Shown: in pieces, positions 447 through 64,000 of the stretch
Layout: each line of letters opens with the position of its first letter
Numbering within the stretch: the stretch's first letter is position 1
Source: Ophelia neglecta
Lineage: Eukaryota
Reading direction: 5' to 3'
Assembly: GCA_965285935.1 (NCBI GenBank)
Contig: OZ260663.1
Coordinates: 81,282,001-81,346,000 of the forward strand
DNA length: 64,000 nt
Made by a program: the position numbers and the translations under genes
Notes under the pieces: model-generated
Database searches by the model: none
Told to the model about the DNA's origin: nothing
The model's input: only the letters and a program-made list of their open reading frames with translations

Positions 447-519
447 GGTTATACACCACTACACTTGGCAGCAATGCAAGGTCATGAGGATGTGATTGAG
501 ATCCTGGTCAATGCCTACA
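447..519 (+). CDS. Sowah: Sowah internal exon: ankyrin repeat (GYTPLHLAAMQGHEDVIEILVNAY); upstream exons lie outside the window
   Basis: Acceptor tcctgtcctgtttcag|, donor |gtgagt at 520. Translation is a canonical ankyrin repeat (G-x-TPLHLAA-x-x-GH-x-x-V-x-x-LV). 73 nt, ends in phase 1, compatible with the next exon. Confidence 0.92.
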
Positions 520-589
520 GTGAGTATTAACTGACAGTCTATACTCTAATAATCCTCTCCATGGCTCCTCTGTTTGCCAAAATATTGTG

Positions 590-3500
590 ATTCAATGCCG
601 AATTTCCCGTCGGAGCTGGGGTCAATATGGAAATAGGTTATGATTAAAAAGACAGGATTTGGAGATATCAATTTAATTTGGACAACAGATGTCTTTATCG
701 GGCAAGCGTCCAGAGAAATACATGCCTTCTTTATTAGCTCCAGTCTGGAAATGTGAAGATGTTATGGGCTTCTACGACCCACAATGCATCACCTGCGACG
801 GAGGGCAACTGCCGGCCATCATTTTCTTCTAGAAGCCATGGCCACAGCCAATCAAGCTAGTATCACTTATCCACTATTGTCAGTTGGCTGTCACCTCGGA
901 TCCGTTACCGGGTTATTTATTATGCGATGAGTTCATTTCGCCGAGCTAATATTTTTGAAGGGCATCAGTGTTTGAAGTCTGCCCCCTTGCTCGGTTGCCT
1001 CTGACAAATCACCGCTGAGCATTATAGAATCACCCCGGCACATTAAAGATTGGAGCGATGTCATAACACTCGGAGAGCACAGGTCTAATCAGAACCGCTG
1101 CCCGCCGCATATGGTTCGCCCCCCTGTGACAATAAATTCACACCCGGAATGCCACATTTGAGCGCGGCCCGACTGCCAATAACAGGAATATTAGGCCAGT
1201 GTAAATCATTGGCGGTCAGAGTGTGACAGCCGGGGACCCCCGGAGCCTCCAGAGGCCCCTGACTGTCACTCAAACCGCCGCCGACTAAGTAGTGTGGCCT
1301 AAGAATACTGCTTACAGGGCCCCTGACCACGCTGTCTAATACCAGTGTCAGGGCCCCACCAGACCCTGAGCAATCAGGAAAGCCGGCCCAAGCACACTCC
1401 ACCAATGATTGACTACATCCTTTGATATTGTGAAAGAATGTCAGGCTCTGGTTTGACTCACACCGGCTTATTTCTACTCATATCTGGCTGAAATCAAATC
1501 GGCTATAACTTTTGCCATTGCCCATATCTCCATCATCCATTACAATCAAAATAATAGAAGAACCTACCATACAAATGTACTTCAGGCTAACCCTGTCGGA
1601 GGTTTATTACCATGTTAACCGTTTGTAGTCAAACGCCGGATTTCTTTAGGATAACTGATCAACCAGCTCGGCTGTGTTGTTGATATTCTCGCTAAAACCA
1701 CCGCAGCTGGTGTGTACTAGACAAGAGAAATAAATGTATGATGCAGGTTATAAATAACAGAACTCTTCAGTAAATACTGTTCTCTTTGACAATCTGTAAG
1801 AAGCTAATATTATAGCTAGGAAGCCAGGGGGGCACAGGGGCTGATTTGAGGACGGGAAGCTCAGGTTCAGAGCCCATCCTTTTCTTGCTCCATCTTGCTT
1901 CAGAAGGCACTTCATGGGTGTGAGACAAGTGTCCCCTCCCAGAGGTGGGTCAGCAAGCTAACCCATCGCTAGGAGGGGACACCTATCTAACCCACCCGTC
2001 CACCCCCACCACCTCCAGATCAAAACCATCCCCACCCATTTTCAAATGCCCTAGATCCGCGCCCAGGACAGTCATTTGGCATTCCGGCCACCATGTTGGG
2101 CACAAGTTGCAGACACAAGGATTTGCTCTCCCTTTTCAAATGTTGTCCCTGGCACTGAAGTGATTTGATTTGGGGGTTTATTAGGCAGAAACCGGCATTG
2201 TAAGAGGGAGTCAGCGGCCTGTTTTGTTGTCTCTCTCACGTTTCATCCACAAAGGTCTGTTTGCCCGCTCAGTGTTCAAACTTCCCATGATACATTAGAG
2301 GCGCAATAGTGAGCGTTAATGCACACTGTGTAAATTTACTTGAGGCCTGTGGAAATAACCCGGTCTTTATTGTCAATTAATATCAACAACAAAATGCTGG
2401 CATAATTGTGCTCTTGGAGCGGGTTGTATGGCTGCTCGACGGAGATGTGTTGAATGTAAAAGGCATGTCGGGTCCTATGTTATGTCAGTTGTTGATGCCC
2501 TCTGATTGTGCAGTTGAATGCGTTGATCTGTGAGCATTGAGGAGAATGAGGAAGCACACTCACGTCCTACCCATCAGCCCAGCGGCCAATGAGCCACAGG
2601 CTTTAATTAAAGAAATGCTTGCCGGAAAAAGGCCGGCTAAGCCCTTCTTGGCATGGGAGTCACGTTCATCTACAAAGCTCATATTTGGATGTTAGAGTAT
2701 TTTTGCCAGCTTGTAGTGGAGAAGTTTTGTGGCTTGTTCGACACGACCTTGCCGCAGCGGGTCTATAATCAATATGACTGCCGGGCTTTTTGATTTTGTC
2801 TTCTCAACTGAAGGAACGAAACATGGCCTGATTAAAGCCGAAGACACATTGAAGCTAATTAGACTGAAGAGCGAGCACATTTCATTGGCTGTAATTCAGG
2901 GGTTGCCACCGAGGGCTAATCAAGGCAACAAAATAAATGTGAGGGGGGTCCTGTAATACAGGGCCCGGGCGCCCGCCTTATTATAGATGGCCGCTCTCAA
3001 GGCAATGATAATTGGCCATTTTGTCAGAGATTTGTAGCTCTAGAGCCTAAAACGTTGCTTTTCCTGTGACTTAATTAAGCCTGACCAGTCTCTTCCCAGT
3101 AATCATACTACTCAGCCATAGACGGAGCCCTGCATCGCCGTGCTCGGTTATTTCTTAATTCAGCTGACTAATTGACAACAAGCCAGTTTGGGTAGCGAGT
3201 CTACAAGAAGTTACTCTTTTCACATCTTGATTGATGTGGTGAATATCAGAATTGGAAACTTCATTGACATTGTGTCCTGTAAATAACAGGGCTGTGAACT
3301 GCATTAGCACAGCTTTCATGTGGAATCTCTGGCCCTTTCACTGTGGATTTTCTCTTAATTGGAATTCATGGGGGATTACTTTGCCTGTCAAGTCGCCTAT
3401 TATGGCATATAGTTCATTGATACTGAAGCTTTAATTTGAAAAACAAAGGAGGAAGCATTATGTCATGATTTTTCGGGATGCCCGATGAAGTTTCCCTTTG

Positions 3501-5955: not shown

Positions 5956-6036
5956 ATGCCAACACCAATATGAGGGACTACAGCGGAAAGAAAGCCAAAC
6001 AATACTTGAGGAACTCTGCGTCGAATAGGTCACAAC
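5956..6036 (+). CDS. Sowah: Sowah exon: (N)ANTNMRDYSGKKAKQYLRNSASNRSQ
   Basis: Acceptor ttcttttttag|, donor |gtaaga at 6037, phase 1 to 1. RDYSGKK-x-x-QYL is the motif that closes the ankyrin region in SOWAH-family proteins. Linkage to an Irx gene supports the assignment. Confidence 0.92.
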
Positions 6037-11156: not shown

Positions 11157-11192
11157 AACTCTTACAGGCCAGACGTTTAAGCGCCAATGTTG
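11157..11192 (+). CDS. Sowah: Sowah 36-nt micro-exon (Q)LLQARRLSANV(G)
   Basis: Strong acceptor atttttcctttttcag|, donor |gtaagc at 11193. Phase 1 to 1 and in frame with both neighbours. Confidence 0.8.
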
Positions 11193-28243: not shown

Positions 28244-28338
28244 GCTCACTTGGACAATGACCTGATGCCACCTCCACGAGAAGTCCCTCGGAGGAAACGC
28301 AGAAACAAGAAGGGCGTAGACGACAAGGAGAACTATAG
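28244..28338 (+). CDS. Sowah: Sowah exon: AHLDNDLMPPPREVPRRKRRNKKGVDDKENY; read-through form would continue RYTSTDI* to 28360
   Basis: Acceptor gattcttttgtag| in phase 0 matches the previous exon. LMPPP followed by a basic cluster resembles the C-terminal motif I recall from invertebrate Sowah proteins. Donor ag|gtatac at 28339, phase 2. Confidence 0.8.
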
Positions 28339-28349
28339 GTATACAAGCA

Positions 28350-34395: not shown

Positions 34396-34480
34396 TGATT
34401 CTGAGATAGCACGAGCCGGGTCGGAGCCAGAACTCTCCAGACTGCCCCCACAAGACTTCCTCAGAGACACCAGTGTGTAG
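34396..34480 (+). CDS. Sowah: Sowah probable terminal coding exon: (S)DSEIARAGSEPELSRLPPQDFLRDTSV*
   Basis: Acceptor tttgtatttatttgccag| in phase 2 matches the 28338 donor. Open to TAG 34478-34480, followed by AT-rich UTR-like sequence and AATAAA. Confidence 0.7.
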
Positions 34481-34660
34481 AGCTATACACCATATAGGCT
34501 CTATTTGATTCTGATGGGGAGCTGAATTAGAGCATCTCAAGTTGAGCAAAACTAGAATCTATACCAAAAGAGCCCAGTCCTCAGTCAAACAACTTACTAT
34601 TTTGAGATATTCATCTAACATTTGAGTAATCTATACTTGTCTATGATTTTATATGTATAT

Positions 34661-34666
34661 AATAAA
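34661..34666 (+). terminator. Candidate polyadenylation signal for Sowah
   Basis: First AATAAA after the 34480 stop, about 180 nt downstream. A further AATAAA near 35484 is an alternative. Confidence 0.45.

Positions 34667-36175: not shown

Positions 36176-36179
<4 letters not shown>

Positions 36180-36211
<32 letters not shown>
36180..36211. repeat. (TA)n microsatellite
   Basis: About 16 TA units. A shorter one lies at about 43323-43340. Confidence 0.95.
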
Positions 36212-36213
<2 letters not shown>

Positions 36214-43603: not shown

Positions 43604-43862
43604 TGGCGGATTCAGGGCTGCAGGAACGGAGTTTGGCAGGTGCGAGGTTCGGGGTGAGGGTGTGGGATGGGTGTGTGGGGGCGGGGATTGGGGTGGGGGA
43701 TGAGGGTGGGGGGTAGAACCCGGTTTCCTTTTTAAGGTTTGCCTTTATGTTGTGGGGTCGGGGTCCCATCTCAGTGGGTGGTCTGGGTCTTCGAACCCCA
43801 TGTCTCCCTCTGGGAGGGTGCATCCGTCCCACACGCTTAACTGAATCCTACATCTGCGCCTG
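43604..43862. mobile_element. Decayed MITE-like insertion
   Basis: TGGCGGATTCAGG at 43604, CTGAATCC at 43841 and cctacatctgcgcctg ending at 43862. G-run-rich interior. Confidence 0.5.
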
Positions 43863-46800
43863 CCATTAAAACTACTTTGAACTCCTTTTTGGTGTTTTCT
43901 AGTTGTAACAGGTGAACTCAGGTCATAAAAAAATCATTTTAACATAAAAGGGAACAATTTTATATTACCAAATTGCTTTCCGTGACAGTTGTAGCAGTTG
44001 CTATTTTCAGAGTTGATAAATCGTTAGAAAACTTCTTAATCTGGCATAAAATCGCCCTATTTTGTTTTGTGATTCATGAATATTTATGAATTATATAAAT
44101 TATTGTCCTTGTTCTAGTTAAATTGTTTGCTCCCGGTAACAACTGTTGTTGCCTTTTTTTTTATCAACCAGGTGGTTCACTCGGGCAATTTGGCATCACT
44201 TTCAAAGCAAAATCATACGATGTCATGATGTGCCGACTGCCCCCTCCCACTCCCTCCCCCTCCAGGGCTCCCCATATAACCATATGTCTGTCCGTTTTAA
44301 GCCCAAACCGTCAGCAGGGGGTGCATGGTAGGGGTAGGGGGTGGGGTTGATCACAGTTCACAGGATATTAAACAGGCAGTAGAAAACAAAACCCCAATAA
44401 TATATGCTTTTCGTTTATAAAAAGACTAACATATAGGCCTACCGAATTTACCATTAAATAAAGTTTATTGGCTTTATAAAAAATATATTATTTCTCAGTT
44501 CAAATGGTTTCTTGTAAATTCTAGATTATTGAAGCTCAACAAAGGAGTTGGAGTAAAATTTCAACTGTCCCCTCTCGTTTACACCTGTGACTTACTCTCA
44601 GGTAAAACACCAGCGTGGGACCAGTATAATTCATGTTGTCAGTACCGACACCTATTGTTTGTGATGAATTATTGTTAAGTCGTGTCCCTTCCGGGCGACA
44701 TGACCTGGTGTATATAGCTATAGCCCGCTTTGACTCCGGTGTCATCTCCTCTCAGCGTAACGTGGACTGATGGTACCACGGCTTCGGATAACAATAGGTA
44801 TCAACTAAGAAACCCGGTATCCCTCCAGGGACCGGGAACTCCTCAAAACCGCTGATATATTATCCCAATAATCGGCGGAAGGTGCTGTGGTTTCGCACAT
44901 TATAATAAAATATGTTGTATCGCTCCATATTCATCCATGTCGAGCTTCTTAGGTATCTTTTTAAATGTCCATATTTGTGTGAATTATTTAATGTCTATAC
45001 AATGTTATTTCGAATGCAATTTTCGGTTTAATTGAATTTGCAACTTATATAGAATATATAAGCTTAGCTCCGCTTTTATATCTGTGTGATTGGATGATAA
45101 TAATGTATTAACTGTCCAGGTACAGTCTGTTTTATACTTTATACAACTATACAGGCATTAGGATTCTTATGCAACTATATGAACTTAGGTTTCGCTAAAA
45201 TTACATTTAAAATGTCGATCAACCTAGTTTATTTTATATGTATATAAATATAGGCCTGTAAACAGTCTCTTGAGTACTGTGAGTGCTGTTCAAAGATTGT
45301 TTAGACTACTTTGTCTTTTTCTTCATTGAGCACTACCGAAGTGGTTTAAAGGACAGTTTGTAATTCAAATATTTGGAATATATTATCGTCTACTATCCCG
45401 GGTGGCGACAGAACAGTCATAAACGTGGATCTATGGGCGACAATTTTACTCATCAATAGGACGTCTGAAAGTAATTTGTTTTAGTTTTGGCTGTCAACTT
45501 TAATTCCAATACCCGATGACATTTTTAATAAATACACCAACATATATTACTGGGAACGAAGGGCTGTGACTCATCAGCACTAGCAACTCGTGAATTAGTC
45601 ACTTGAACAATTATCTCTTTAAGGTATATAGAATTTCTGTTTTTTGTCTACACCTCTAAATAAATAGTTTGTCATCGGTTCTGACACGGCCTGACAGGGG
45701 ACGGTGGTGGCACATTCGAGTGACATCTAGCCAGCCAGCTCAACAGTCAGGCTTAACACAATCTGTCTCCACGACAGCCAAACTCACAATTGAAAAATTC
45801 ATTATTAATCTGCTCCGATCTTCGGTGTTGAAAAACATTTCTACAGCAAGTGGCAGATTATGGAAATTATTCTCCCTGCCTTATCTTTTGTTAAAACAAA
45901 TCTTTAGCCGTGCCAAGCGGGACTTAGGAAACCCAACCAGCGATCAAAATATTTCTTCAAATATTCAACAGGCTTTTGTTTGAAATAAGACAAAGGATGT
46001 TGTGGGTGACATTGTTTTACATGCTGGGGGTATCACTTACGCCGGCGAGGTTATCATATGCGCGGGCATGGGCTTATTATCAACAATATGGGGCGAAATT
46101 ATAAATGGTAGAGTGGGTGGCATGGATTAGCATTATTAGACGCCCATAACTCCCAGAGGGTCCCTCTGATAAACGCCCACCCAAATCATCGCAGCTCAGA
46201 ACACAAACAATACACGTACGACGGTGGGCCATGAGATGGTCCCCCTTCGAAAATAAAACCAGGCAATTTTAATGCCTTTTTTTGAAATTGCAGTTAAAGA
46301 ATATTTTTAATAATTGTTTTTTAGGCCCAGTAGCGTGTCGATTGTCTTTTTATAAGCCCATTAGATGTCAATGCGTTTTTTTATTAAACAATTTCACTTC
46401 TTGGTCGTGTTTTTCTCAACTTTCAACAGAAAGTTGATTATTGCTTTGTCAATTCCCCCAAAACCTGCCGATTGATCGAAGGTATTTAAAGTGTTTTGCA
46501 ACCTTCCCTGTTATGTTTGAAAGAAACCCGAAATATTTCATTCGTTCTATCGTCATAACTTTGGCAGAATTATAATTGTATTTGTTGGTAACGAGAGAGA
46601 CCGGTGGGTCTGCTGTCCAGTCTCAAAGAGAAAACAAAGAAACCAACTCCCGGAATGACAAACACCTTAAAGATTATAGACTCATGCGTTGAGAGTTGAG
46701 AGTTAGTTATAGCATTCTGACCACTCTGGTCTGGGACACACCTGGTCTACCTGTCCAGGTATCTCTCGGCAGAATACAAGATGTGTCAAATCAAATGATA

Positions 46801-47994
46801 ACATCACCAATTTATCAATATATATGTAGGCCCATATAATTTACATAGGCATAACGGATCATTTGCACGCGGTGTGGTATAGATTTTGTTCGTTTTTTGC
46901 TGGTATTAGTGTCACCCGGACTAGTCATCCAGCCCGTAGCCAGGTCGATGGTCCAGTTGATAACCCTGTGACTGCACTCGGCCCCGAGTGTCACATCAAT
47001 CGAGTCTCCTGCGAAGAGGCCATGGTCCAGGGGCTGTGACCTCCGCCGATTACGGTAGTCAATATCACGGTGAGACGGTCTGCCGGATCTACACTTCCTA
47101 CGGACCACTTGCTTCTTTTCATCCATGGACTAACGGCGGTTTCAATCCCCGGGCTACCACATAGACCAATGAGTGCACCATGACTGGGGAAAGCCAGGGC
47201 CGTTATTTCAAAGAGCCCCCCCCCCCTCCCCCGTCCCACCCCTCCCCCCTCTCCCAACCCCCCAACCCGGGCCCCCAACCCTCGTTTCAACCTCCCATTC
47301 CCGTCCCCACCCCCCATCAACCGCCCCAGGAGCGAGGACCGATTGTCTTAGATCCTATAGAACTTCTAATCTTCTGACGAAGAGACTGATCATGTTGTCA
47401 TGGCGAGAGTGTCCCGGACCAAGGGACCTGGTCCGGAAGACTTCTCATTCCGGTCACGACTGCTGCCTCAGAGCTGCGTCGACAGCCAGCGGACCCGGGA
47501 CCCGCGTCACCCTCCCCGACTGAGACCATGCCAATGCCCGGGAGCTCACATTGAAAGGCTCCGGACTTACGAACCATTGTCGTGGCCTCTCTTGCTAGCA
47601 CGAGCTAGGCTATTGGCCAAAAAGTTTCTTCAGCCTGGTAATCGAGGTACCCTGTACCGGACTCTACCCGAATGCCTTAGTCGGAGGGCGCAGTCGGTTT
47701 GGTTCGCCCAGAGACCCTGGTCTGTCTCCAGTGTAACTGTTTCTTGGGTCGTCCTGAGGAACGAGGTACATGTATCTCAGTTCATATCACCCATAAGCCC
47801 CGGGCCTATACCAACAGGTTGTTGATCTGGAGATCATGACCCCCTCTCTCCCCCCTCCTCCTCTGTCTCCTAACACCCCCCCCCCCCCGGCCCCCGGACT
47901 CCATCATGGTTTATCCTCACTGGCATGGAGGGAGGGGAGGGGGGTTTAAGGGGGATAACAACTCGGCTATCTCATTCTCCGTGAGTCAAGCGCC

Positions 47995-48515
47995 GACTGG
48001 GTCTGGATCCATCCGGTGGGTCTAGTCCTGCCTTTTAGGTCTGGTCCGGCCCTGTGGGTCTGGTCCTGCCTGTTAGTTCTGGTCCGGCCCTGTGGGTTTG
48101 GTCCTGCCTTTTAGGTCTGGTCCGGCCCTGTGGGTTTGGTCCCGCCCTGTGGGTCTGGTCCTGCCTGTTAGTTCTGGTCCGGCCCTGTGGGTTTGGTCCT
48201 GCGTTGAAAGCTTGGTCCCGCCTGTGGGTTTGGTCGCGCCCTGTGGGTCTTGCCCCTTCCTGTGGGTCTCGTCCTGCCTTGTAGGTCTGTTCCCGCCTGT
48301 GGGTTTGGTCGCGCCCTGTGGGTCTTGCCCCTTCCTGTGGGTCTCGTCCTGCCTTGTAGGTCTGTTCCCGCCTGTGGGTTTGGTCGCGCCCTGTGGGTCT
48401 GGCCCCTCCCTGTGGGTTTGGTCTGCCTGTTAGTTCTGGTCCGGCCCTGTGGGTTCGGTCCTGCGTTGAAAGGTCTGGTCCTGCCTTGTTGGCCTGTTCC
48501 CGCTCTGTGGGTCCC
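47995..48515 (+). repeat. 19-bp minisatellite (ggtctggtccggccctgtg and variants) with a 75-bp higher-order unit
   Basis: Tandem 18-19-bp variants. The 75-bp block recurs at 48221, 48296 and 48371. Confidence 0.93.
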
Positions 48516-51500
48516 CCTTCTCCCGAGGGTCTCCCCCCCCCCCCCCCTTCCACAGGTCTGACCCCACAGCGTTGGTTCTGGCCCAGCCCCAAGGACCCCG
48601 CCTTGTTGGACTGGACACATGGAGAAGACTTCTTGTTCTGTCCGGGAAGCATCTAGACATCTCCTCTCCAGCAGGGGAGGTCCCTCCGTTGTCCCTGAAC
48701 GTCTAAATCTGTACTATATATCAACAAAACTACTCGACACTCCTTACTTGACAATTTACATCACTAGTCCACAACTCATATAACAAATGAAAAATCCAAT
48801 CGCCTATTTGAAATTTCAGCTACAGTGTAGCCAACCTACCGATGAACCTAAGCAAAGGGACCGAAGTACATAATGATTTTACAAATCAGTCACATAAATA
48901 GTTCCATTAAAAAAAATACTCAAAAGCTATGGACAATCAACTTGTTCTTGTGTAAAGTAATATTTTGTAATTTGGGTACATTTTCAGTGTTTTTTTTTAT
49001 TGGAGCCACACCCAGTATGTGTGGCTGATAAGTTTTATCAAACAATCGACCAGGGAAAAAATACGCGATGATATGTTTATAAAATAAATACAGTTGTTAT
49101 TTTTTCCTTTGGATTGTCGCCATGTTATCTGATGATAACTAAACAACGGGTGCAAATGTTAAAAATATATGTTTACAAATTGCACTACAATAAGGTATCT
49201 GTGAGCGGATTATCTTTTCTGATCCGGTTTATCTCTAGTCATATGCTTCGCCGTTTTCTCACGTCGATAATCTCCTTGTTTTGAATTTGGTGATATTTGT
49301 ATTGACTATTCGGTAGCTTCAATTACGAAAAAACTCACAGAGAAACGTTGTAAGTAAGACTGAACGTGTTGTTATGGTCGGTGTTGGACTGGGGAAGGGC
49401 GAGATCTGGCATATATCACTCGTCTTTCAAGACCCACCACAGCGAGAGCTCGACTCACAGCCAACTAGCCTTGCCTCTCGATATCCCAGATCGGGTAAAA
49501 CTGTTAAGACACAAAAGCATTACAAATTTCTGACACCTGAAAACACCAGTCGGGTTTAACCCAGTGCTTTTTAAAACAAATCTGGAAGTAAAGTAGTGAA
49601 GAAACACGACACATACTGTGCCTCACTGGTTTGTCCGCACCTAGCCGGATCTGCGTAAATTCATTTGGTTTCGAGTTACTCCATCAAAATGTGTTTAGAT
49701 GACTTAACCCAAACTACCCCAATTTACAAGTGTTAAAAATATCTGACTTCTCGCCCTTGCTGATTGTGGGGTGAGTTTTTTCCACGCGAGACTCTGTCTT
49801 GATGAGACTCGTTCACTTTGTTTTCCCCCGACCGACATTAACGAGAATAAAACTTAAGATTTTAAGAAAGACCAGCGCTCCGGGTTGAGGCGTTTTCCAT
49901 GTACAGCACGAATGACAATTGTCAGAGACAAAAACTTTCGTATTGACGAACAAGATGGAGAATGATTTGTGAATTGCGGACTGTTATTAATGGCATGCAT
50001 TAGAATTGTAATTGGCAATAGGCAATTATACGCATAATTACTGTATGTGTAATAATGTCACGGTCCGAAATTCAACCAAATCATACCCCCAAAACGCGCA
50101 ATTTATTGTGACAGCTACAAATCGCTATGTTGTGTGTATGGTCGCTCCAAAGCAAATTCAGTCAAGTATACAAGTGAATGTCGCATAATATTGTCAAAAC
50201 TATAATGGCTCATAATTGTCATTTAGAGGAGACAAAGGAGTTGGTAATTTTGAATGCGAAATTCAAGTTGACACTATAATTATGCACTTTCACTGTGAGG
50301 TTGAAATGTCCAGGAAACGGTGAAATTTACCAGTAAATTCAATTAAGTTCTCGCCGAGTTTAAGCCGATTATGGTCCCACTAGTGCGGCTTTAAGCTGGG
50401 ATGAGCAGGAATTGCCTACTACACCGGAAATGGGATGCAGGCGACAGGAGACACTAAAATACTCGTGGCTTTAACAACGACAAGACTAATATTAGGCTTT
50501 GACGGGAGAAATGTTCCATCTTTCTGCCATCCAGGTCTAATCCTTCCCGGGCTCATGGGCTCATATGGGTTTGCTGGCATATACAAAGATTTCAACATAA
50601 ACATATAGTTTTATCGAAGACGTATGTACACGTTCTGTATGCGGTTATAGCTAAAGGACACATACCAAAAAAAAACGGGTTGGGCACAAGCTTGCTAGCT
50701 GTTAAAAATGGAAATCCAAAAATTACTTATAAATTTGTGTGCCTACAAGAATAAGGTTGCATTTGACACATTTTAATGATTTATATATATTTATGGCTGA
50801 CACACCGACCGGACGATACGACACGCTGTGTTTTATGTTTGTCAGTACCGGTAGCTTCTCTCCATTTTCGTTTTAACATTTGTGCCATGTAAAGTTAAAT
50901 GACCAGCGGTCTGTCTTGGTCGCTTGCAGTCTCTCCCGGGAATGTCTGGACTCACCAGCAGAATATCAGACTCACCAGCAGGCAATTTGTTTTAACAGGG
51001 CTGGCTTAGAAATGTGTCGGGGGAGTACCAAAGCAGAAAAGGTGGACAAAAGTCGAGGTGCAGGGCTTAATTATAGCTATAATGGATGTTTGCGTGAGCA
51101 GCAATGGGCTGTCCCGGAAGGGAGGGGCTCGGTGGACACATTGGACATATTGAAGACGAGCTCGGCGTCGGCTGCACGCACCTCCTTGTCTCACCAACCG
51201 GCCCGGCTAACTGATTGTATTTAGCAATGTTTACAGTTGCTCGAGAGAAGCAATATATATTGGAAATTTCTATAAAAGGGGCTTCTAACAGAAAGGAATT
51301 ATATGTTATGTATATGTATATAGGTTATGCCTAATCATTATTTTTCTTTATCACAAGTCATGCTTTGATAGAACATCAACCACGCGTTCAACTTAGAATT
51401 GGATCCTTTTGATTAATGTATGCCCCCAAAAATCATCCTTAACTGAAATACGTCTTCTTCTATCAGGGATTGTATTATCACAGTGAGGTAGTAATACGGT

Positions 51501-54500
51501 AGACAGCAATAAATGTCCGATTTCATCGGTACATTGGGTCTATCACATTCCCTTTGACAACTGCTGTAATCTAATTTACTTGTTTATTGATCGGCGAAAC
51601 CATATCATGCGCTTTTATTACGTGCAAAATATTGTCAATGCTGTTCGAAATGCGACAATATTGTCACCATAAAGAAACCATTCTCCTTAAGCTTCCTTTC
51701 AGCCGGCTCTAATTGTGTTTTCAGATATCCTTGGCGCTTTTGACACTAAATCTTTCCTTCTATTCTACGAGGATAAGTGGGTTTCCGTAATGGTTAGAGC
51801 GGGCTGTCTATCATGTACAAACAACCCAATTTACATCCAGACAACAGCAATATTCCTTGTAAAACGAGCAGGCAAACAGTAGTCTGCTGAAAGCTATAAG
51901 CCTAAAACAATACCCGTTCGCCTTTGCTATTTATGAAAGGGCGATATGCATAAACACAGGTTTACCTAAATAGGAATGAGCCGGCGGTACTCCCTCCCAG
52001 AACACAGTGATCTTTATGAGTGGGTACGAAATAAGCCAGCACTGATAAACATGTCTTGTGTTTGCGAGCAGCAGACGACATTTAGCGGATGATTGGTTTG
52101 TAGGGCCTGAAATCCAGAATAGTTCGCGGGAGTTTATGTGAGCAGATGACTATTGAATTTGTTTTGCCATGACTAGCTCATTTGGCCAACCTCAAAATGC
52201 GAATTGACAGATCACCCATTAGTAAAATAAATTGTTGCGATGGAAATGAAAATAGTGTGAGGAACTAGACCAAGCAGATGTATGCGTACCAGCATTTAGG
52301 ATATGACTAAAAGGTCAAAACAACTAAACAAAAACATCTATAGATATATATAGCAGCATATCGCTGGTAATCATTTTATTTCGGTCCTACACTAAAAACA
52401 CCTGAGTATATTAGGCCTATATAAACGTGGTCTTTTTCACTATAAACGTGGCCTTCTACTTCAACTATATGTGGACGCTTAAGAATAAGACAAAATCTAC
52501 TTCCGGTAGAAAAAATGAAAGCCCACATTGGCGGCCATGAAACGGCAGTTAAGATAGTAAACCAACAACATTTTGTCATAAACATTTTTAGAAATACTAT
52601 TATTTAACACACACAACTGCCTGCCACTCAAAATTAAGAAGGAAATGTTTGGACGATGGATAACTCTATAGAGCTACTCCTGGGTAAAGCATGTTATACG
52701 CGGATGTGTCTACAGCCTTATTCATCGTGTAAACGACACTAGCCGCTACAAAAACATGTTTGACTAAAACCTATGGGGATAATGCTATCAACCGTACATA
52801 CAGAGTCCAAATGCCCTGACCATTTGAAGAGCAGATAGGCTCTCCGATCTGGGACAAGCCATCTTAAAAGGGTCGTTCTTGCAGAGTGCAAACCCATGTC
52901 GCTACATATGATCTCCATGTCGACAGGATAAGACGACTGAAAGCAATGACATTTGCCATGTTTCTATAACATTTTCCCCACATTTTCCCAAATTATTTGT
53001 CCGCATAACAAGTGTACTCATAACGGTAATCGTTTGCCTTGCTGTTAGAATAATATTTGGGTTTCATTAGCCCGTGTTATGGTGCCGCCAGCCGCTCGCT
53101 ATATTGGTATTGTTGCCCTATTGGGGAGCATTGCCCCATTAAAGTAGGACAAGTCACATCTTGGTCGGATTATGAATGATCCCCTTGCGACAAGCGAGTG
53201 TCAACCCCGAATTATTCTCGGCAACGATTTCATTATCCGGTCTGCGCTTTAGGGGACATATGTAGCATTTTGCCGAACAAATTGCCGCGCCCTTTCTCTG
53301 GCTTCATGGCCCCGCCGCCATTTTCGCCCGCCAACTCCGTTGTCATAACCAGCCCGCCCCGTCGCCTGATTTCCCTTGCGACTAACCGTGAATATTTCAA
53401 TTATATTTTCATATAGTCTATTTATCCGTGTACTGTTGAACTGACGTGTGTAGCCATTATGCCATGATAGATTTGCTGGATGCTTGATTTTCCTATCACG
53501 AAGCTCGACATCGCATGAAGGCGCCAAACGACATCTTTACGTAATGAAACATCCGGCGGAATGGAGTTAAACTTTCACAGCTCTTGTCGACATCTGGGAC
53601 AGCCTATTTAGGAGGAAAAGATGAGAACGGGCTCGGTTTATGTCCTCGCTCAATACGGCAATTCGGTTTCTTTCTCACCTCTTAATTAAGGCGCCCAGAT
53701 TGGAGAAGGTCGTTCGTCACCCTCTCTTTCATGGCGTCCTCGCCGACAATGGACGCGGCATAAAGAACTGGGAATACTTGAGCGGCTCACTCACATCTAC
53801 AGTGTCGACTTAATTCAATCTTTTAAGGTTGGGGGCAGTAAATCTGCGTGTTTCCCACTATCGTAGATCACTTGGGTTCGACTTTTAGAGGACTCTCTCC
53901 CGTCCGCCATCATATCCTGCCCATTTGAGCCATTTTGTTTCATTTATAGCCCTAAATTTGCAAGCGATCGGCACTTGTGCTGAGCTTCGGTGGGTCTTAT
54001 GTATGACAAATGACACAGTATGCTTGCCCCAGGTAAAGCATGTCATGTGACAAGCAAAACAAATCGACCGGAAGTCTGAACAAGGGGCCGGAGTGTCCTT
54101 GTAGACTCGCTGTCGTGTCCTGATAAGTGAGGACCACCAAATTGGTCCAAGACCTTAGTTGACCTCATGGATCCAGCAGACCGAAAGAACGATTGCGCTG
54201 TTTACATTGGCATTCAGCTTTTTATTGACCTGCCCAGGGACTTCGGATTACAAAATCCGCACCTGTAGTCACCCCTAAATCCCAATTTTTCAGGAAATCA
54301 ATGAAGACTTAAGTGGACCTATCTGAGGATCGCCTGTAATGGTAAAGGTCCCGTGGGTCGATCTTCCTGGCCAATGCATATCAAGCGGATCGCTGGATCA
54401 CGCTCTCCGCTATTTGTCAGCTGTTTTCTATGAGCTTAGGTTTCTGCTGCAACAACGTTTCGAATACTACAAAATATGTTTCTTTCTGAGGAAAGACCAT

Positions 54501-57500
54501 GCATTGTTGGTTATGATGGGAGTCGCTGAGTCTTATCTTGTCGTACACTGGTACTGTTGCCTTCGGCAGCCTCGTACACCGGCCGACGACAAAGCCAATG
54601 TAAATCCCCCAACAGCGATCTGAAGGCAAATAAATTATATTCAAGGTGGTATCTACAGTCTCCGGTGAGTTGCAAACCTTTCAAAATGATTTAAGTTAGC
54701 TTTTACTGTAATGAACCACTCGGAAATGACTGCGCGGCCAACTCTCGCGGGGACGTGGTTTCAGAGATCACGCGTGACGATGCATTTTGCGGGCCGTTTT
54801 GTCGGAGGTATAGAAGGGTGCTGGACGCAGAAGGCGGTCTAAGAAGCCGATAGGAATACAGACACGGACGTTGGACTGCTTAGCCGATAGTTAGGATGCA
54901 ATGCAGTATATGGGCGTTCTCTTGGGGTTCCGTTTAATTTGTAAAAACATTGTATTCTTATGCCTGCGATAGCTCGTTATAACCCCATGCGCGGGTCGCT
55001 TGTTGTTTTGTAAACGAGGCTCGCCCGATACTAATCTCCCCTCTCGTCCCGCCGGAGAAGTCTTGTCATATTTCACTGCCACGGTCGATATATGAAACGT
55101 GCCCGGCACACCATTACCCGCAAAATATCGGGAATATGAAAGGGTCGTTGACAGATTGGTGATCCGCCTTGTAGAAACGGCCCGACTCGCCGCACTTACA
55201 CCCTGTGTGTTAAATACACGCTTGTACAACAAGCTTATATGGACAAGGTTTTAATCATCGTGCTCTATCTGTGTGCCTGGCGTACAAATAATGTATACTC
55301 CATTTTTACGCCATATATATAAGTAGCTCAGACGAATTCCATTAGCAATGTTGTGAATGCAAATAAGACCGCTGGGCCTAATTCAGCCTCATTTTGACCA
55401 TCCTAACACATGAAGATAGCTACTTCCGGTCAAAATAAATAATTGAGATATTAACTTAAAAATACGCAAGCTTTAAGATTTTGAACAGCCGGTAAGTCGA
55501 TAGATGAATCGCCAAACTAAAATACTGGTTCAAAGACGTGTTTTGCATATGTTGGTGTAATATTATCTCTCTTTAGTGCCGTAAAATTTCCCCAATATAC
55601 GAAAAAAGTCTCATCGCTGAGGCAGTGAGCAATTATTACTTAAAAAGGTCGATGCTGTTAAAACAAGGATGCCAAAAAGCAATTTATAGAACCAGATTAC
55701 AATGATCATTAGGTCTGGTGTCAGACTATTATATAAGGATGGCTATAGGTTAAATAAACACCGATAAACGAGTGAGTGTATATGGAACTTAATCAACTTC
55801 CGGTGTTGTACAAAGAATCAAATCAGTCAAGGGAAAATGTTTTACTATATAATACGTACACTAGGCTTAAATTAATTGTCCACATTCGATGGCGCCATCC
55901 TCTTTTTTCCTTTATCCTCGCCGACATTGAGCATTGACACAGATAAACGTTGTATTACAGGGAATACGGTGTTGTCACATGAAACGCCCTGACAGGGGTC
56001 AAAAATGTCAAAAGGGTCAACTGCTTCATTGTTACCAAATAACACCGGCTTCTAGGAGGGTGCTTGACAGAAAATTGACCGGCGTTCTTCACAGAGCGCC
56101 GCTTTTATTGCCAAGTTGGCAAAAATTACATAGCCGACTAAGTATGGCCTAATAACAGATTGGGGCTTTCGGTGATGATAATTGTCAGACGGCGTCTATG
56201 GGGCATGCGACTAAAAGACTGCCGGGGACTTCTAAAAGCTTCAGTTCCGATAACTACGGTAATTACAGGAATCAGATCGAAAAGCAAGATGGTCGATGTC
56301 TCAGTCAGTCGTTTGGCAAGGATAAAGCTCACCCTGGGCAGATAATAATTCTAGGCTTTCAGGACTGTTTCATTTAACAGAAGAATTTTGCCATCCTAGA
56401 CATGACATGCTTCGATTTCCAAATCATTTATTAACATGTGGGTGAAAATATACCAACTGTAACTAGACAAAATCCCACGTGTTGCTCACTGGTAACCACC
56501 ATCACTTAATACTTAATGTGAACATTAAATATCTTGAGAACTTCATGTTTGACACGTTAGTGTTTGAGTTCTGCACTCCTTTCTGATTGGTGCTGTTTTT
56601 AGATTAACACAAGTAATGATTGTCTCACAACAACCCCGTTTGAACTTTCTTACTGCTTTGACTAATTTCTATCTAGCAAATTTGGTTAAAAGCCTAATTG
56701 TTCTGTATTTATCTGGACTGATGGCCCTGGCTTAACTCTCGTGAAAATCAAAGGCGACATATCCGCCTCGAGTGGATAAAGTGACAGCTGAAGGAACCCG
56801 AGGAGGATAGTTCATGGCAAGACATACTGAAGAAGGCAAATAAAAAACCTAATGTCCTATAAAATATGTAGCTGTTCATCTGGATGAAATGCCACTCACA
56901 AATAGCCTCTTGTATACGGAACTGGATAAAATGCACGTGAGCGCTTTTATAATTATAATAATTGCGAGACAACCTGCCTCTTAATAGCGTTATATATGTT
57001 AATTTTAGTATCCGGAAATTTATTGTTTCTAACGAGGCATGAATAGATTTTATTTTAATAAGAACTCTGTGTCTAGTGAGAGTAGAGTTTTCGAGTGGAG
57101 AAGTGTTTACCACGAACGCATGCACACATTTAGAAAACTCGAGCAATGGTGTATGAATTTCTTAAACTGACAAACACTTATGCTCGGGTCTGAATCAATG
57201 CACGCGCGACTCCTCTTATATGAACAGATAGCAAAGATGTTTTAAGTGCTTTATTCTTCAGACGAGCGAAAATTTCATAAAACAAATATCGCATAACTTA
57301 ATCAGTATGTTAATCCGCCAGCTACAGGGCTGCATGTAGGCAATCGAGGGGTCATGCAGGATTGGTCGTGACATTGAGATTTGAAAATATCGTTGACAGT
57401 GGACGGATGTTGCCTACTTTAGTCCGTTTATGACAAGATTAACAGTTTTATTTCTATCTGTGTTCGCGCACGCACGCCAAACAGACACTTCATTACGGCT

Positions 57501-58826
57501 GGCAAAGATAATTACAGATAGAAACAAAGACATTCTGAGAGAAAGTGTATTCAACATGAAAGGCTGGCCGAATGCTTGGCGATGTTGGGCGGCCTCTTTG
57601 ATAATCCGACTGTCGATGGATCGTAGAGGATGAAGTATCTATTTCCATTAGACGAGTGGCTAAAGCGGTATTAGTCGATCTAGCCCTTCAACCCGCAATC
57701 CTCTGATGTGACGGCGCGCATAGCACATCTTGTCTCTACATTTACCCGCTAATGTGTAGTTTAACACACCACAATTGGCTGTCGGGATGGCAAAGGTCGT
57801 GTCCTTAACTAAAACAAAGACGTATTGTCAGAGTAGACCGGAGACATTAAAAACCAGTGGCATTTTAATGGAATACTGAGAAGCATAACCGGCTAGTTAT
57901 TAATGTCTGACGCGAAAACCGTTAAAACAAGGGTGAGAGGGGCAAACAGAAAATACTGAATGGCAAGTCAGCCGTATTTACTGGCCCGGTGCTTATGGCA
58001 CATGGCCATGTATATGACAATGAGGTTCCCGAGTATAGGCCTGTAGCGTTATGAATGATGACAGGTAATTCATATTCTCGTCGAAATAAAAATTACACAA
58101 TCGTAAGTGAGTGACTATCATCCATTAAACGATTGCAGACAGATAAGGCAAGCTTTTTTCTTGCATAAACTGAAGCCATTTTAAAATTTATCAGCCTTCA
58201 AAATTAATGCCAATGGCACCGAACTTTTTTGTTTAATTATCTTCTTTTTAATCAGCATGCAATAAACAGAATAAAGTATCTGAATTGTTGCAATTTCTTA
58301 CATAAAAGCCTAATGTAGATTTACCGCTGAAAAATGTCCCTGTAATTAGTCAAAAGGCAGTATTTATCGAATGAAATATCTATTTTATTTCGAATGCTTT
58401 AGCTTAATTTGTCTGTAAAATATCAAGTTTCAACTGTCTCAATTAATGACGTACCAGACTCCATTAAATTCAACAAGACTCATTCAATTTAGAGTTTTAG
58501 AGAGGTACACCCCTTATAAATAAGCATTCCAGACTATCTCACTGACACTATCAGCTCTGATATCGACGAACACACTTCCACAACAGAATGCTGGTCAGAG
58601 GTTTGCCTTTACTGATATATCATATTGGCGCCAGCGGGAACGGTATCTATGTAAACGTAAAAAGTCGTCTGCAAAAAGGACATTCCGAGCAGTGCCGTCA
58701 TTGTCTGTATACAGATCGACATAAATAACTCATAATCGAATATGTATTCTTTTGTAAACCTATCAAATGGATAAATATGAAAATTGACAACAAACTTGCT
58801 GTTGACATGAGTGGTGTATAAAACAG

Positions 58827-58832
58827 TTTATT
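58827..58832 (-). terminator. Candidate Irx polyadenylation signal
   Basis: AATAAA on the - strand (tttatt on +), followed on the - strand by a GU/U-rich tract (gtttgttgtcaattttcat). The sequence at 58.8-60.3 kb is U-rich on the - strand, like a 3' UTR. Confidence 0.5.
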
Positions 58833-61293
58833 ACAAACACATACATATATTTACATCTATCATATATATTCAATGTATATTACATGCAATTTTAGAGAAT
58901 CTAATTCCGATAAATTATTTTATACATGTATCATGTCTTTGGTATGGTATAGTGAATGTATGCCCAACACTCCTGAAGTGACTTCACATTAATTAAAATG
59001 TATTAGGTGAAGGTATACAATTAATGAATCTCAAAGAGATTTACTCTTTTGATAATTAATTATAGATACATGCAAATTGGTTGCTACACAACATTCACAA
59101 TATATTTATATGTATATAATATATACCTTACATTATAACAAATTATTTGTCATTAAATATTCATTTATAATTGAGAAATGGACAAAATGATCGAAGATAC
59201 TGTTAACACCGTGTAGAAAGAAACTCACAGAACAATATATTTTCACCCACAAACATAACAGACTGTAGACATTCTTTATCTGGGCTAAGACATTAGACAA
59301 CTAGCTGTTTAACAGGGGGTAAGGTTTTGAAGCTTTAGGCGGGCGGTGGGGGGGGGGGGGCACGAGGGGAGTTTGTCGGAGATTGTAAGGGGTGGTGAGC
59401 TTGGGGTTCCCCCACCAGGAGGGGTGTCGGGGCGGGGAGCTCCCACAAAGGAGGGGGGGGGGGGGTATGGGGTGGGGTTCCTGACCCCTTTTACTAGCGA
59501 GAACCAGTTGAGAGTGTGGGTGTATAAATTAGAGCCTCTTATAGAGGAGTCTACGTGGGGGGCTGGCCCCTACAAGACCCTCCCTGGATGGCGACATCCA
59601 TCCCTAACCTTCCCCTCAACCCCTCAGACCACAATTTGAAACCCCTGATCAGCCAGTGCAGAAGACTTGGTGACTATCGGCACTCCGATCACAAGGGTAG
59701 ACCAGCCGTAACTTGAAAAATTGCACATTAATTTCATGTAGCCCATACTTGCCCAAATATGGCACAATCACACAAATCCGACTGAGTCGCTGATTGTTGC
59801 AATAAACAAAGAACGCAATTTGCTTAACCATAAAAAGCATTACCAATTGTAAACATATCAAACTAAGAATGCTTTAGATTTAGAATAATTTATACACGAT
59901 GCTGGCCTATACTTTTAACAATATTTATAGTCAAGTCGAGACTGCATGACAATCCGGATTCACAATTTATTTTCAGTATCTGGCCGAATATTGTCAGACT
60001 TAAAAAACAATAAACCCTGACTTCACATTTGATGCGAGGTGATACAAGGAAAACAAACAAACCAACAATATTTATAATTCAGATGGCGGTCCACATGTCA
60101 TGAACACGTGACCATGTGGCCTTTACGACTGGAAACCGTTTTCTAATATCAATAATAATGACCAGTGCGTCTAAACTTAGTTCACGCAGTGTGCAAAATA
60201 GCTGTTCCTGCCTTGTTCAGTTGCGCATGCTCAGAGATGTATTAAAGTTCGTCTGCGCAAAAGCGGCCTTCCGCCTGGGGGTTAATATCCTAAAAGTCAC
60301 TGTTAAGAATTCCAAATGGATCCTGCTATATCACAGTTTGCAGAACTACAAATGATGTTCTTTCCAATTGGGTAACGTCCCTTAAAACTTGGAATTTGCA
60401 GCTTGCAAAGTGGAGGAAGTGCCTCTGACCAGCATTGTCTGACTTTCAATGGAGTCCATGCAAGACGCATACACAGCACAACACTGGAACGCAAAATAAG
60501 GAGTTCAAAAAAGGCAAAAAGGAACAATGATAATCGAATATTTTTTTCTCGTAAATTAAGCTTTAATCAATATGCCAAGATATGTCTTATCAAATATGTT
60601 CGCTGCTAACCGCATTCACTTTATTGCCTATGTCCGAAATAATGTTGAGAAAACTAGTCCATGCAACTATATATAAAAACTGTAAAAGTAACTAATAGTG
60701 GCATTGATGAGGGTTTAATTAAATGTAGTGTTTACTTACCACCGACCCTGTTCTGTAGAGTTACAACATTAGGGAGTATTGTCATCATACTCTGCAAAAA
60801 AAAATCACAAACGTATAAGTTTCTTTTCGAGCTTTTTAAAAACAAAAGAGTATTATCTACAGCATAAAACCTAAACACAATTAGTAGAAATAATCTTTTC
60901 TTTATATTTGAGAGCTTATTATAGCCATGGAGTTTCTGAGTATCTATTAAATAATCCATGTAGTTATCCAATATCAATTTAACACCATTTTATTTGACTA
61001 CCTTAATCAGCTCTTTACATATGAGATTAAATCCTTCTGACATTTGTCCTCTGAGAATTATCTATGAGGCACCTGTGTAAAGACTTTAGTTACATACGCT
61101 AATATTTGGACAACCATTATGTCGTCATTATGTGACGCTTCATTTAACTGTTTACAGTTGGCAAACAAACCCTCCAATCAGGGGATATCAATACTTCTTA
61201 ATGTGAGAACCGCCGTGTGTGTCTGCTTGCCAATGTTTATAAGGTGACAAGCGGCTAAGTGTATGTTTAATTATAAACGAGGTATGGAATAAT

Positions 61294-61804: not shown

Positions 61805-61895
61805 CTTTTTAGAACTGGTTTGAAAGCAGTGTGTGCTTCGCCAGTTGTTGTTGTATTGAAGCTGCTGGAAAGTTGAGGTATGTCATTTTTCTCAC
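61805..61895 (-). CDS. Irx: Irx C-terminal exon (G)EKNDIPQLSSSFNTTTTGEAHTAFKPVLK(R/S)
   Basis: Acceptor tgattttactgacag| in phase 1 matches the 63444 donor. TAFKPV resembles the AF-x-PV C-terminal motif of Irx1/Irx3-type proteins. Donor ag|gtgagc overlaps an in-frame TGA at 61801-61803. Confidence 0.85.
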
Positions 61896-63443
61896 CTGTC
61901 AGTAAAATCAAATAGTTCGATGAAAAATAAGTAAATGTGAGTACGTAAAATTTAAAAATATTGTCTACTGGTTGCTCATGATATTTCGACTATTGTATTG
62001 TCCACATCTAAAGGGTATCTTTGTTCCAATAGACAATTACGGGCCTTGCTAAGTGGCCACACCTAATCAATAAGTTGTTTGGACAATAATTATGTAGTAA
62101 AGAGGAGTTAATTAGATATTGTGTTTAGTAATAAGACATATGAGGCGCTTAAACTCAGACGTGTGACCGCTTAACCACGTAGTTAAGACTTAACGCGGGG
62201 AGTCGCCATGGAATTTAGACTAGGGGTGGAGGGGGAGCGGAGGGGTGGGGGGGGGGGCAGGCGTGCTCTAGTGGAGGGTTGGGGAGAGGATACCACATAC
62301 ATGAATTGAAACCCGTTGTTTTCATTAAAGTTTGCGTTGTGATCCTACGATTGGACTGACCCCCCCCCCCCCCCGCACCCCGGCCCCGCCCCGCCGCCCA
62401 CGTTATAATATAAAGTCCGCCCCTATGACTGCTGATGGCAGGAAGGAGAAGTCGGTTAGGCTATGCCAGGCACGACTTGCATGCAAATAGCCCAACTCTG
62501 ACAATAGACTGGCTGATATTATATCAACTATAACATAAAGACTTTGCCACCCATTACAGACCGCCAATTCAGAGTGGGTACACCCTCATTGGCCGCTAAT
62601 AGACACCGCTTCATGGCAGTTTGATGCTTGCCTGTGTTATTAAAACAAGGAATATAGAAGCCCCGTACTCGTTCTCCCTTGTTCTCAAAGTGAATCTATT
62701 GACAAGAGGGAAAAACACATTTGCATGTAACCAGCGTGATTTTGTAGCCACGAATGCCGGGAATGGCCGAGCTTAACTTGCTCTAAGTAAGATATATCGG
62801 TAGCTGGCGTGTGAAAGATGGAGGGACCGGGCCGGGTGAAGCAGCGTTTTGTAGTGTGATGCCTTTAATCAGAAAGAAATCCGTTTCACCGATTTGTTGC
62901 AAGTGAGCTGATAGCCAAGAAACAGCAGCCTTGGCGAGATTAGACTAGAAAGAGAATCATCCAGCCAGACTATAAATAAATACTCGACCAACATTCTGAT
63001 TCTGTTTCCAGTGACGCAAACTGGGCCTAATGGAGACAACGCTAAGTGGAAATGTAGCGAGCGGGATTGGAAGCCTCTGAATTCTCCGTCAGCTTTATCG
63101 TCTGTCTTTTTGCAGGAAAGAGCACTTTATTGAAGGATATAAACGAGCTCTACTGGGTGAAAGGCGGATGTATACAGAAATATCGCAACCCACTATATCA
63201 GCAAGCTTCCGCTCTGCAGCAGTCCATCATCCTTGGCCTGAAGAGCATTTTGCCCGAGCCAGTCAGCCTTGACAGAACAACACTGGAAAACATCGCCGCG
63301 ACCAATCGGGCCGAGATTTGATGCCGTTGCCATTATGCCGGTAGACATGAACAGAATATCATTGGCCATAAAACAGCCACAATGAATGTTCAGAATGACA
63401 ACTATAAAAGGGGTATTAGGGTACTGAAGTGGATGGGACTTAC

Positions 63444-64000
63444 CGAGAAATCCGTTGGGTAGTTTAGAGTAGCCTGCTGACGGTGTGGCTAGCGAGCCCA
63501 CCCCTCCCATTGCCGAGCTGGCCAGCCCGTTTCTGTGGGCGGCAGGCCCGGCCATGGCTAAGGAGTTGCCCGACATCTGTCCTGTGCTGTTGCCCCCGCC
63601 GAGGGGATGTGAGAGCCCCGGGTAGTTGTAGCTGAGGCCGGCGTGCGACGAGGGGCTAGTGTAGGTACCGTTCATCCAGGGCTGAAAGCCGGGGTTGGTT
63701 GGCGAGGAGAAGGCCGTGTGTGTACCCATCTTGGTACCGCTGTGACTAGAGAGGCAGAGAGGCGACTTGCGCCCCATCGGAGGGGTGCTGGAAGTGGCCA
63801 CGTCGGCCAGCGACCATATCCGGGGCTTCTCGCTCAGGTGGTTAACCTGACCCACTTTTCCTACAGACGCCGACACCCCTCCTGGACCGGAAGCGTTAGA
63901 GTCCGTGTTTGAGCTGAGCGATGCGCATGCGCCGAGTCCTGGAGAGGTGCGGGAGGCCAGCGTGTGACTCTTTTGTAGGTGTGGGGAGAGCAGAGAGTCG
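63444..64000 (-). CDS. Irx: Iroquois (Irx) TALE-homeobox gene, IRO-box exon, 5'-truncated by the window edge (homeodomain outside the window)
   Basis: Frame is open from the window edge (DSLLSPHLQKSH...) through SEKPRIWSLADVATSS, the diagnostic IRO box (KP[KR]IWSLA), to ...KLPNGFL(G). Donor g|gtaagt at 63443. The ORF-track extension to 63193 is intron read-through. Confidence 0.95.

What the first reader, a model, noticed from the sequence alone, without database searches (positions are those of the whole stretch)
447..64000. Irx-Sowah genomic regulatory block: Sowah 3' half convergent with an Iroquois gene
Seen: an ankyrin gene with the RDYSGKK..QYL motif, split by 5-12 kb introns, ends about 24 kb from the 3' end of an IRO-box gene on the opposite strand. 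Established: Sowah is the bystander gene linked to Irx genes across many bilaterians, and its introns hold Irx enhancers. Inference: this is an intact instance with the intron-containing (not retrogene-type) Sowah. The tail-to-tail geometry suggests this Irx paralogue flanks the 3' side of Sowah, with other Irx genes possibly on the 5' side. The ORF track misses this because only about 600 nt of Sowah in 34 kb is coding.
Basis: partly seen in the sequence, partly recalled or inferred. Interest (0 to 1): 0.75.

Follow-up and report, generated by a model that had tools for sequence, protein, structure and literature searches.

The report
Annelid Irx–Sowah block, published layout
The back half of the ankyrin gene Sowah faces the tail of an Iroquois homeobox gene in a likely annelid genome, the layout already published for the worm Capitella; shared enhancers likely keep the pair together but were not tested, and a conserved read-through after one Sowah exon likely makes a second, shorter protein.

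Summary
Six Sowah coding exons (+, 447-34480; 597 nt; introns 5.1-11.6 kb) form one open frame, 49% identical to Capitella Sowah. An Irx 3' end lies on the minus strand, 26.3 kb stop to stop, with no other gene found between. The layout is published: Capitella has Irx-3, Sowah, Irx-1 (tail to tail), Irx-2 (PMC2674049). The window's IRO box equals Capitella Irx1 at 17 of 17 residues. So this is a new instance of a known block. Enhancers, expression and junctions were not shown: the runs found behave as DNA, and no conserved non-coding element was found. Side finding: reading through the donor after the RDYSGKK exon gives a 47-residue tail (6037-6179) conserved in six other records and under coding constraint (pN 0.05-0.13, pS 0.54-0.82). 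It is likely an alternative C-terminus, not found in my paper searches. The scan's earlier notes hold one Sowah microexon finding in another genome and none on Irx linkage.

The parts
447..519 (+). Sowah coding exon a (ankyrin repeat, GYTPLHLAA), phase 0 to 1
   Evidence: Pfam Ank E 6e-8; same boundaries in L001-L004; one listed allele, synonymous
5956..6036 (+). Sowah coding exon b (RDYSGKK..QYL), 81 nt
   Evidence: same 81-nt exon and GTAAG donor in L001-L004
6037..6179 (+). Read-through tail of exon b: 47 residues, core RGSLIITHLSL, stop at 6177-6179; likely alternative terminal exon extension
   Evidence: similar tail in L001-L003, P0001, P0004, P0017, each 0 of 5000 shuffles; pN far below pS among L001-L003, similarity ends at the stop
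11157..11192 (+). Sowah coding exon x, 36 nt (LLQARRLS)
   Evidence: found by splice-site scan, 1 of 9 candidates; matches Capitella P0006, L001, L002, L005
16425..16651 (+). Sowah coding exon c, 227 nt (GSYSSKI, GHFGI, Ser/Pro-rich)
   Evidence: tblastn with P0006 E 3e-16; six listed alleles, all synonymous
28244..28338 (+). Sowah coding exon d, 95 nt (MPPP motif)
   Evidence: tblastn with P0006 E 4e-4; splice sites
34396..34480 (+). Sowah last coding exon with stop; ends T-S-V
   Evidence: in phase with exon d; first half aligns to P0006 and P0005; the weakest-supported exon, not found by tblastn
34481..35489 (+). Probable Sowah 3' UTR (AATAAA at 34661 and 35484)
   Evidence: motif positions only; no RNA
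35490..58826 (.). Gap between the convergent 3' ends; no gene found
   Evidence: no significant Pfam hit among 41 window ORFs scanned; Rfam 0; tRNA 0
58827..60784 (-). Probable Irx 3' UTR (AATAAA at 60625, 59971, 58832; one more at 58389)
   Evidence: motif positions only; no RNA
60785..60791 (-). Irx last coding exon (7 nt including stop)
   Evidence: splice sites and the same C-terminal end as P0023
61805..61895 (-). Irx penultimate coding exon (AFKPV motif)
   Evidence: P0023 aligns across both junctions, 61% identity, E 2e-39
63444..64000 (-). Irx large exon running off the window; IRO box region 63828-63778
   Evidence: open frame; homologues P0022-P0024, P0014; 17 of 17 residues equal to Capitella Irx1

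Best explanation
The window holds the last six coding exons of an intron-containing Sowah gene facing the 3' end of an Iroquois gene in a likely annelid, the Sowah/Irx-1 half of the cluster published for Capitella, and the pair is likely held together because enhancers in and around Sowah would act on Irx promoters. Shown: both coding structures, their orientation and spacing, homology to lophotrochozoan Sowah, and no other detectable gene between them. Inferred: (1) the Irx is the orthologue of Capitella Irx1, from position plus IRO-box identity; (2) a head-to-head Irx lies left of the window and a further Irx to the right; (3) Sowah acts as bystander, and breaks in the block are selected against because they would part enhancers from Irx, as shown in Drosophila only. 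Sowah itself is under coding constraint. It likely makes two C-termini: a long form through exons x, c, d and e, and a short form that reads through the exon-b donor to a stop at 6177-6179 and would end at an intronic poly(A) site.
For: Spliced 198-aa frame, 49% to Capitella P0006 (E 9e-49), 46% to the spliced annelid-type locus L005 and 46% to Mactra P0005. Of 13 hits to exon b, 4 carry the SOWAH winged-helix domain PF25877 and none is named as another ankyrin family. Exon a and b boundaries are the same in 4 of 4 genomic loci checked. 7 of the 40 listed alleles fall in exons and all 7 are synonymous (147 more not shown). Capitella order: Irx-3 reverse, CG10632 forward, gap 9020 bp, Irx-1 reverse, Irx-2 forward. 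IRO-box region identity: Irx1 17/17, Irx2 9/17, Irx3 8/17 (by eye). Insulator insertions in Drosophila sowah block ara/caup wing enhancers. Tail.
Against: No RNA evidence for any junction, UTR or the tail in this organism. No intronic match to L001-L004 beyond the tail and one AT-rich 37-nt hit at E 0.007. Intron a-b is 116-302 nt in four relatives against 5436 here, so long introns are not a fixed trait. The Drosophila evidence concerns the 5' part of sowah and the head-to-head genes. Homeodomain-type motifs were not clearly above shuffles. The ACAnnTGT excess (45 against 22 in dinucleotide shuffles) is matched by its mirror control TGTnnACA (48). The homeodomain and the Sowah 5' half are off-window. 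IRO-box likeness may be ancestral: a Helobdella Irx also shares 13 of the 17 residues.
Confidence: 0.85

Rival explanations
1. The genes are Sowah and Irx and are neighbours by ancestry, but these 3' introns and the gap hold no Irx enhancers; the constraint lies in the 5' introns serving the head-to-head Irx, and the long introns here reflect genome size.
For: Drosophila enhancer region lies toward the sowah 5' end. Short a-b introns in L001-L004. No conserved non-coding match. About 3.2 kb of tandem arrays tolerated in intron 4.
Against: The convergent Sowah/Irx-1 pair is kept in Capitella with no gene between. The loci compared have saturated synonymous sites against the window, too far apart for enhancer alignment, so the blank is weak.
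Confidence: 0.25
2. The tail at 6037-6179 is not translated: it is a conserved non-coding or splicing element next to the donor, or a chance open frame.
For: About 10% of 47-codon intronic stretches are open by chance. No RNA here. The nearest poly(A) hexamers are 1.0 and 1.4 kb past the stop; L002 has none within 1.5 kb. L006 stops a few codons after the same donor.
Against: Among L001-L003, tail differences at codon positions 1/2/3 are 6/5/18, 3/3/23 and 5/4/26; indels keep frame; similarity drops at the stop (scores 63-116 before, 14-19 after). The 11-residue core is identical between the window and L001-L003 despite saturated synonymous sites.
Confidence: 0.12
3. The Sowah exons are a decaying duplicate or belong to another ankyrin family, and the working gene is elsewhere.
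For: The 5' half is not in view. Pseudogenised Sowah remnants beside Irx are reported in tetrapods (PMC5803294 passage).
Against: Open frame over six exons with canonical splice sites; 7 of 7 listed exonic alleles synonymous. Hits are Sowah-type. No second copy in the window.
Confidence: 0.03

Closest known systems
Capitella teleta Irx-3 / CG10632 (Sowah) / Irx-1 / Irx-2 cluster (PMC2674049, Additional file 4)
   Same: Multi-exon Sowah forward, followed tail to tail by an Irx with the same IRO-box region; no gene between; Sowah C-terminal half 49% identical.
   Different: Larger scale: the whole Capitella Sowah spans 37 kb with a 9 kb gap; here the last six exons span 34 kb and the stops are 26 kb apart. 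Flanking Irx genes are not in view.
Drosophila sowah / Iroquois complex (ara, caup, mirr)
   Same: Sowah linked to Irx; enhancers for Irx shown inside sowah introns (PMC12311624).
   Different: All fly Irx genes lie 5' of sowah, ara head to head; the same holds for other arthropods, C. elegans and amphioxus in that table. No convergent Irx there.
Retrogene-type, single-exon SOWAH of tetrapods
   Same: Same protein family and RDYSG motif region.
   Different: Those copies are single-exon and unlinked to Irx (PMC5803294 passage); this gene has five introns in its 3' half and is linked.
Extensions at the same donor in mollusc Sowah models (Mya P0019, Mytilus P0007/P0009)
   Same: Coding sequence continues past the exon-b donor.
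   Different: The bivalve extension is unrelated in sequence (P0002, P0003, P0018: 412-4696 of 5000 shuffles score as high), has a weak CRIB-like motif, and in P0019 splices on in frame; the tail here ends in a stop.

Membership tests
SOWAH (CG10632) family | Ankyrin repeat followed by the RDYSG..QY motif, alignable with CG10632 orthologues | tested here: met
   alignment in PMC2674049 Additional file 5 read by eye
SOWAH (CG10632) family | N-terminal winged-helix domain (PF25877) and first ankyrin repeats | not testable with these tools
   left of the window, no genome held; present in 4 of 13 hits
SOWAH, intron-containing type | Multi-exon structure with conserved intron positions | tested here: met
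   five introns; exons a and b same boundaries in L001-L004, exon x acceptor same in L001, L002
Iroquois (Irx) TALE homeobox genes | IRO box | tested here: met
   63828 on minus strand; 17/17 to Capitella Irx1. Pfam has no hit for this exon and the Atlas gave no Irx-named cluster
Iroquois (Irx) TALE homeobox genes | TALE homeodomain | not testable with these tools
   not in the window (motif scan empty); expected beyond 64000
Capitella Irx1 orthologue | Phylogenetic grouping on the homeodomain | tested here: inconclusive
   position and IRO-box region agree; no tree made
Irx-Sowah genomic regulatory block | Tight linkage with no intervening gene | tested here: met
   small-exon genes could be missed
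Irx-Sowah genomic regulatory block | Conserved non-coding elements in Sowah introns | tested here: inconclusive
   none against 10 loci, which are distant and cover only part of the introns
Irx-Sowah genomic regulatory block | Intronic enhancers that contact and drive Irx; shared chromatin domain | not testable with these tools
   needs ATAC, 4C/Hi-C and reporters

The most novel reading that the evidence does not exclude
Annelid Sowah carries an undescribed, anciently conserved second C-terminus made by reading through the exon-b donor to an intronic stop. The short form would swap the long Ser/Pro-rich tail for a 47-residue one, both ending in an S/T-x-hydrophobic, PDZ-ligand-like motif. It would also let the bystander be expressed without transcribing the 28 kb that face the convergent Irx. 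Molluscs and an arthropod-type locus show unrelated extensions at the same donor, so the site may be a protostome-wide switch point.
Probability: 0.6. Interest if true: 0.4.

Novelty: new member of a known kind. Interest (0 to 1): 0.25.

Why it matters
The block is a textbook case and this exact layout is in print for Capitella, so the main finding adds one more annelid-type instance with expanded introns. It would be useful for hunting lophotrochozoan Irx enhancers once close genomes are aligned. The side finding matters somewhat more: Sowah's own function is poorly known, and a conserved alternative C-terminus gives a testable handle on it and on how a bystander gene's transcript length relates to the regulatory block it hosts.

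Tried and rejected
No RNA holder was listed; the three runs are one sample, cover introns with long contigs and show no exon-exon joint, so they say nothing on expression. No whole genome is held, so flanking Irx genes could not be sought. Maeso et al. 2012 was not held under two ids; I know it only through PMC12311624, PMC5803294, PMC3342872, PMC5585340, PMC5010895 and recall, and its text or supplements may already describe lophotrochozoan layouts, elements or isoforms. A five-exon model without exon x was dropped because homologues need the LL..RR exon. Long ORFs at 21.4-25.6 kb and 48.0-48.7 kb are tandem-repeat frames; they were left out of the Pfam scan (41 of the 61 listed ORFs scanned; the exon-b and Irx frames were scanned). 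Three weak Pfam hits (E 0.017-0.042, all under cutoff) were rejected. A degenerate second Sowah copy was not found. ACAnnTGT enrichment was rejected by the mirror and spacer controls. Atlas searches gave leads only: a SOWAHC-like cluster at 0.85 for exon b plus tail, nothing useful for the Irx exon, whose recognition value was low. No Irx was seen in L001-L010, which is uninformative at their lengths. Place and sequence look-ups of earlier notes were empty.
Full report
1. What is in the sequence. The window is 43% GC animal DNA; no whole genome is held. A six-frame motif scan found the ankyrin exon at 447, the RDYSGKK motif at 5973 and an IRO box at 63828 on the minus strand; it found no homeodomain motif. 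Homologues fetched with the exon-b region (13 hits) placed two more exons by tblastn. A splice-site scan gave a 36-nt exon at 11157-11192 (1 of 9 candidates, chosen by homology), and the last exon was read by eye. The six exons total 597 nt with introns of 5436, 5120, 5232, 11592 and 6057 nt, all AG/GT and in phase, giving 198 residues and a stop. The Irx has three coding exons in view (64000-63444, 61895-61805, 60791-60785). The unnamed protein P0023 aligns across both predicted junctions and ends the same way (61%, E 2e-39). The stops are 26,304 nt apart. Pfam on 41 window ORFs, Rfam and ARAGORN found no other gene.

2. Identity. The predicted Sowah peptide is 49% identical to Capitella P0006 (E 9e-49), 46% to the spliced locus L005 and 46% to Mactra P0005; these E-values are for a small, preselected local set. 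P0006 matches the Capitella CG10632 row in Additional file 5 of PMC2674049 (by eye). Four of the 13 hits carry PF25877, and one source names P0010 a SOWAHA-C winged-helix protein. The G(H/F)FG motif of exon c is shared with Capitella, L001, L002 and L005 but not with the mollusc proteins, so the organism is likely an annelid (inference). Of the 40 alleles listed, 7 lie in exons and all 7 are synonymous third-position changes; 147 more were not shown. For the Irx, the 17 residues from the IRO box onward equal Capitella Irx1 at 17, Irx2 at 9 and Irx3 at 8 positions (by eye). No tool named the gene: Pfam had no hit, the homologues are unnamed and the Atlas was uninformative.

3. The layout is published. 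PMC2674049 (abstract, passages, section 9, Additional files 4 and 5 whole, parts of file 1) reports Sowah/CG10632 either 5' of or within bilaterian Irx clusters. For Capitella it lists Irx-3 reverse, CG10632 forward (11 exons, 37 kb), a 9020-bp gap, Irx-1 reverse and Irx-2 forward. The window is therefore the Sowah/Irx-1 half of that cluster at larger scale. In the arthropods, C. elegans and amphioxus of the same table Sowah is head to head with the nearest Irx.

4. How it likely works. In Drosophila, deletions and insulator-bearing insertions inside sowah impair ara/caup-dependent wing patterning, while deleting the sowah 3' end does not (PMC12311624, parts 1 and 2 of 3). By analogy, enhancers in Sowah and the gap would act on Irx promoters and select against breaks. 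This step is inferred. Against a simple transfer: the fly region lies toward the sowah 5' end and serves head-to-head genes; intron a-b is only 116-302 nt in L001-L004; blastn found no intronic conservation with 10 loci apart from the tail and one weak AT-rich hit, although these loci are too distant for a fair test. Motif counts did not help: ACAnnTGT (recalled as an Irx site; 11 papers hold it with 'Iroquois', search listing only) occurs 45 times against 22 in dinucleotide shuffles, but 32.5 are expected from trinucleotides and the mirror control occurs 48 times. The only runs holding this DNA behave as genomic, so junctions are untested.

5. Side finding: a conserved read-through tail. Past the exon-b donor the frame stays open for 47 residues to a stop at 6177-6179. 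The same tail occurs in 3 of 10 loci (L001-L003) and in 3 of the 18 proteins (P0001, P0004, P0017); each scored above all 5000 shuffles. Searches used a query built from tail-bearing rows, and L001-L003 and P0017 are close kin, so this is about four independent lineages with the window. Among L001-L003 the tail has pN 0.05-0.13 against pS 0.54-0.82, and similarity ends at the stop. L001 and L002 also keep the GTAAG donor and the downstream exons, and L005 shows the spliced long form, so the tail is an alternative, not the only end. No downstream in-frame donor is shared, and coding constraint argues against a decay-bound retained intron, so an intronic poly(A) end is the likeliest route (inferred; hexamers 1.0 and 1.4 kb past the stop). 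Serine stands third from the end in the six tails that end at the shared stop position (window, L001-L003, P0001, P0004); P0017 runs on past it. The long forms of the window, Capitella and five mollusc species end in S/T-x-V/I, which fits the class I PDZ ligand pattern (recalled, untested); most tails end in alanine, a poor fit. Against: no RNA, 10% of such stretches are open by chance, and L006 lacks a tail. Bivalve records carry an unrelated extension at the same donor with a weak PBD/CRIB hit (E 0.046 and 0.42), spliced onward in Mya P0019. Searches for Sowah with isoform/PDZ, with alternative splicing, with Iroquois and with annelid (listings only) showed no paper on such isoforms; Maeso 2012 could not be read.

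6. Other papers seen: passages only of PMC5010895, PMC5803294, PMC3342872, PMC8848322 and PMC5585340.

7. Verdict. Real, correctly read, and a new member of a known kind. Interest 0.25, most of it from the tail.

Noticed in passing
window 6037-6179 (+): Conserved, coding-constrained read-through tail after Sowah exon b; likely an alternative C-terminus.
   Followed up: yes
P0002, P0003, P0018, P0019, L004:982-1370: Bivalve-type Sowah records extend past the same donor with a different conserved segment holding a doubled CRIB-like motif (weak Pfam PBD); in Mya P0019 it splices on in frame.
   Followed up: partly
L007/L008:33-435: An arthropod-type Sowah stays open about 100 codons past the equivalent donor, with the next exon about 2.7 kb on in L008; conservation not tested.
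   Followed up: partly
window 34469-34477 and 6168-6176; P0005, P0006, P0008, P0019-P0021: Both predicted C-termini and the long forms of the lophotrochozoan homologues end in S/T-x-hydrophobic, PDZ-ligand-like (pattern recalled).
   Followed up: no
window 21991-25531: Three adjacent purine-rich tandem arrays (35-mer x47.5, 45-mer x24.3, 17-mer x25.8) in Sowah intron 4, giving strong GC skew and spurious long ORFs.
   Followed up: partly
window 48016-48513: GC-rich tandem array (19/75-nt period) in the intergenic gap.
   Followed up: no
window 5605-5639 and 8057-8078: Short high-copy dispersed repeat: many contigs from elsewhere in the genome end here.
   Followed up: no
window 32300-33300: GC-rich kilobase in intron 5 with four overlapping ORFs of 101-226 aa, no significant Pfam hit; possibly a mobile-element remnant.
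   Followed up: partly
window 1920-1991: 72-nt imperfect palindrome, with allelic variation beside it.
   Followed up: no
L009, L010: Intronless Sowah-like genes among the metagenome hits, possibly retrogene-type copies; taxon not determined.
   Followed up: no
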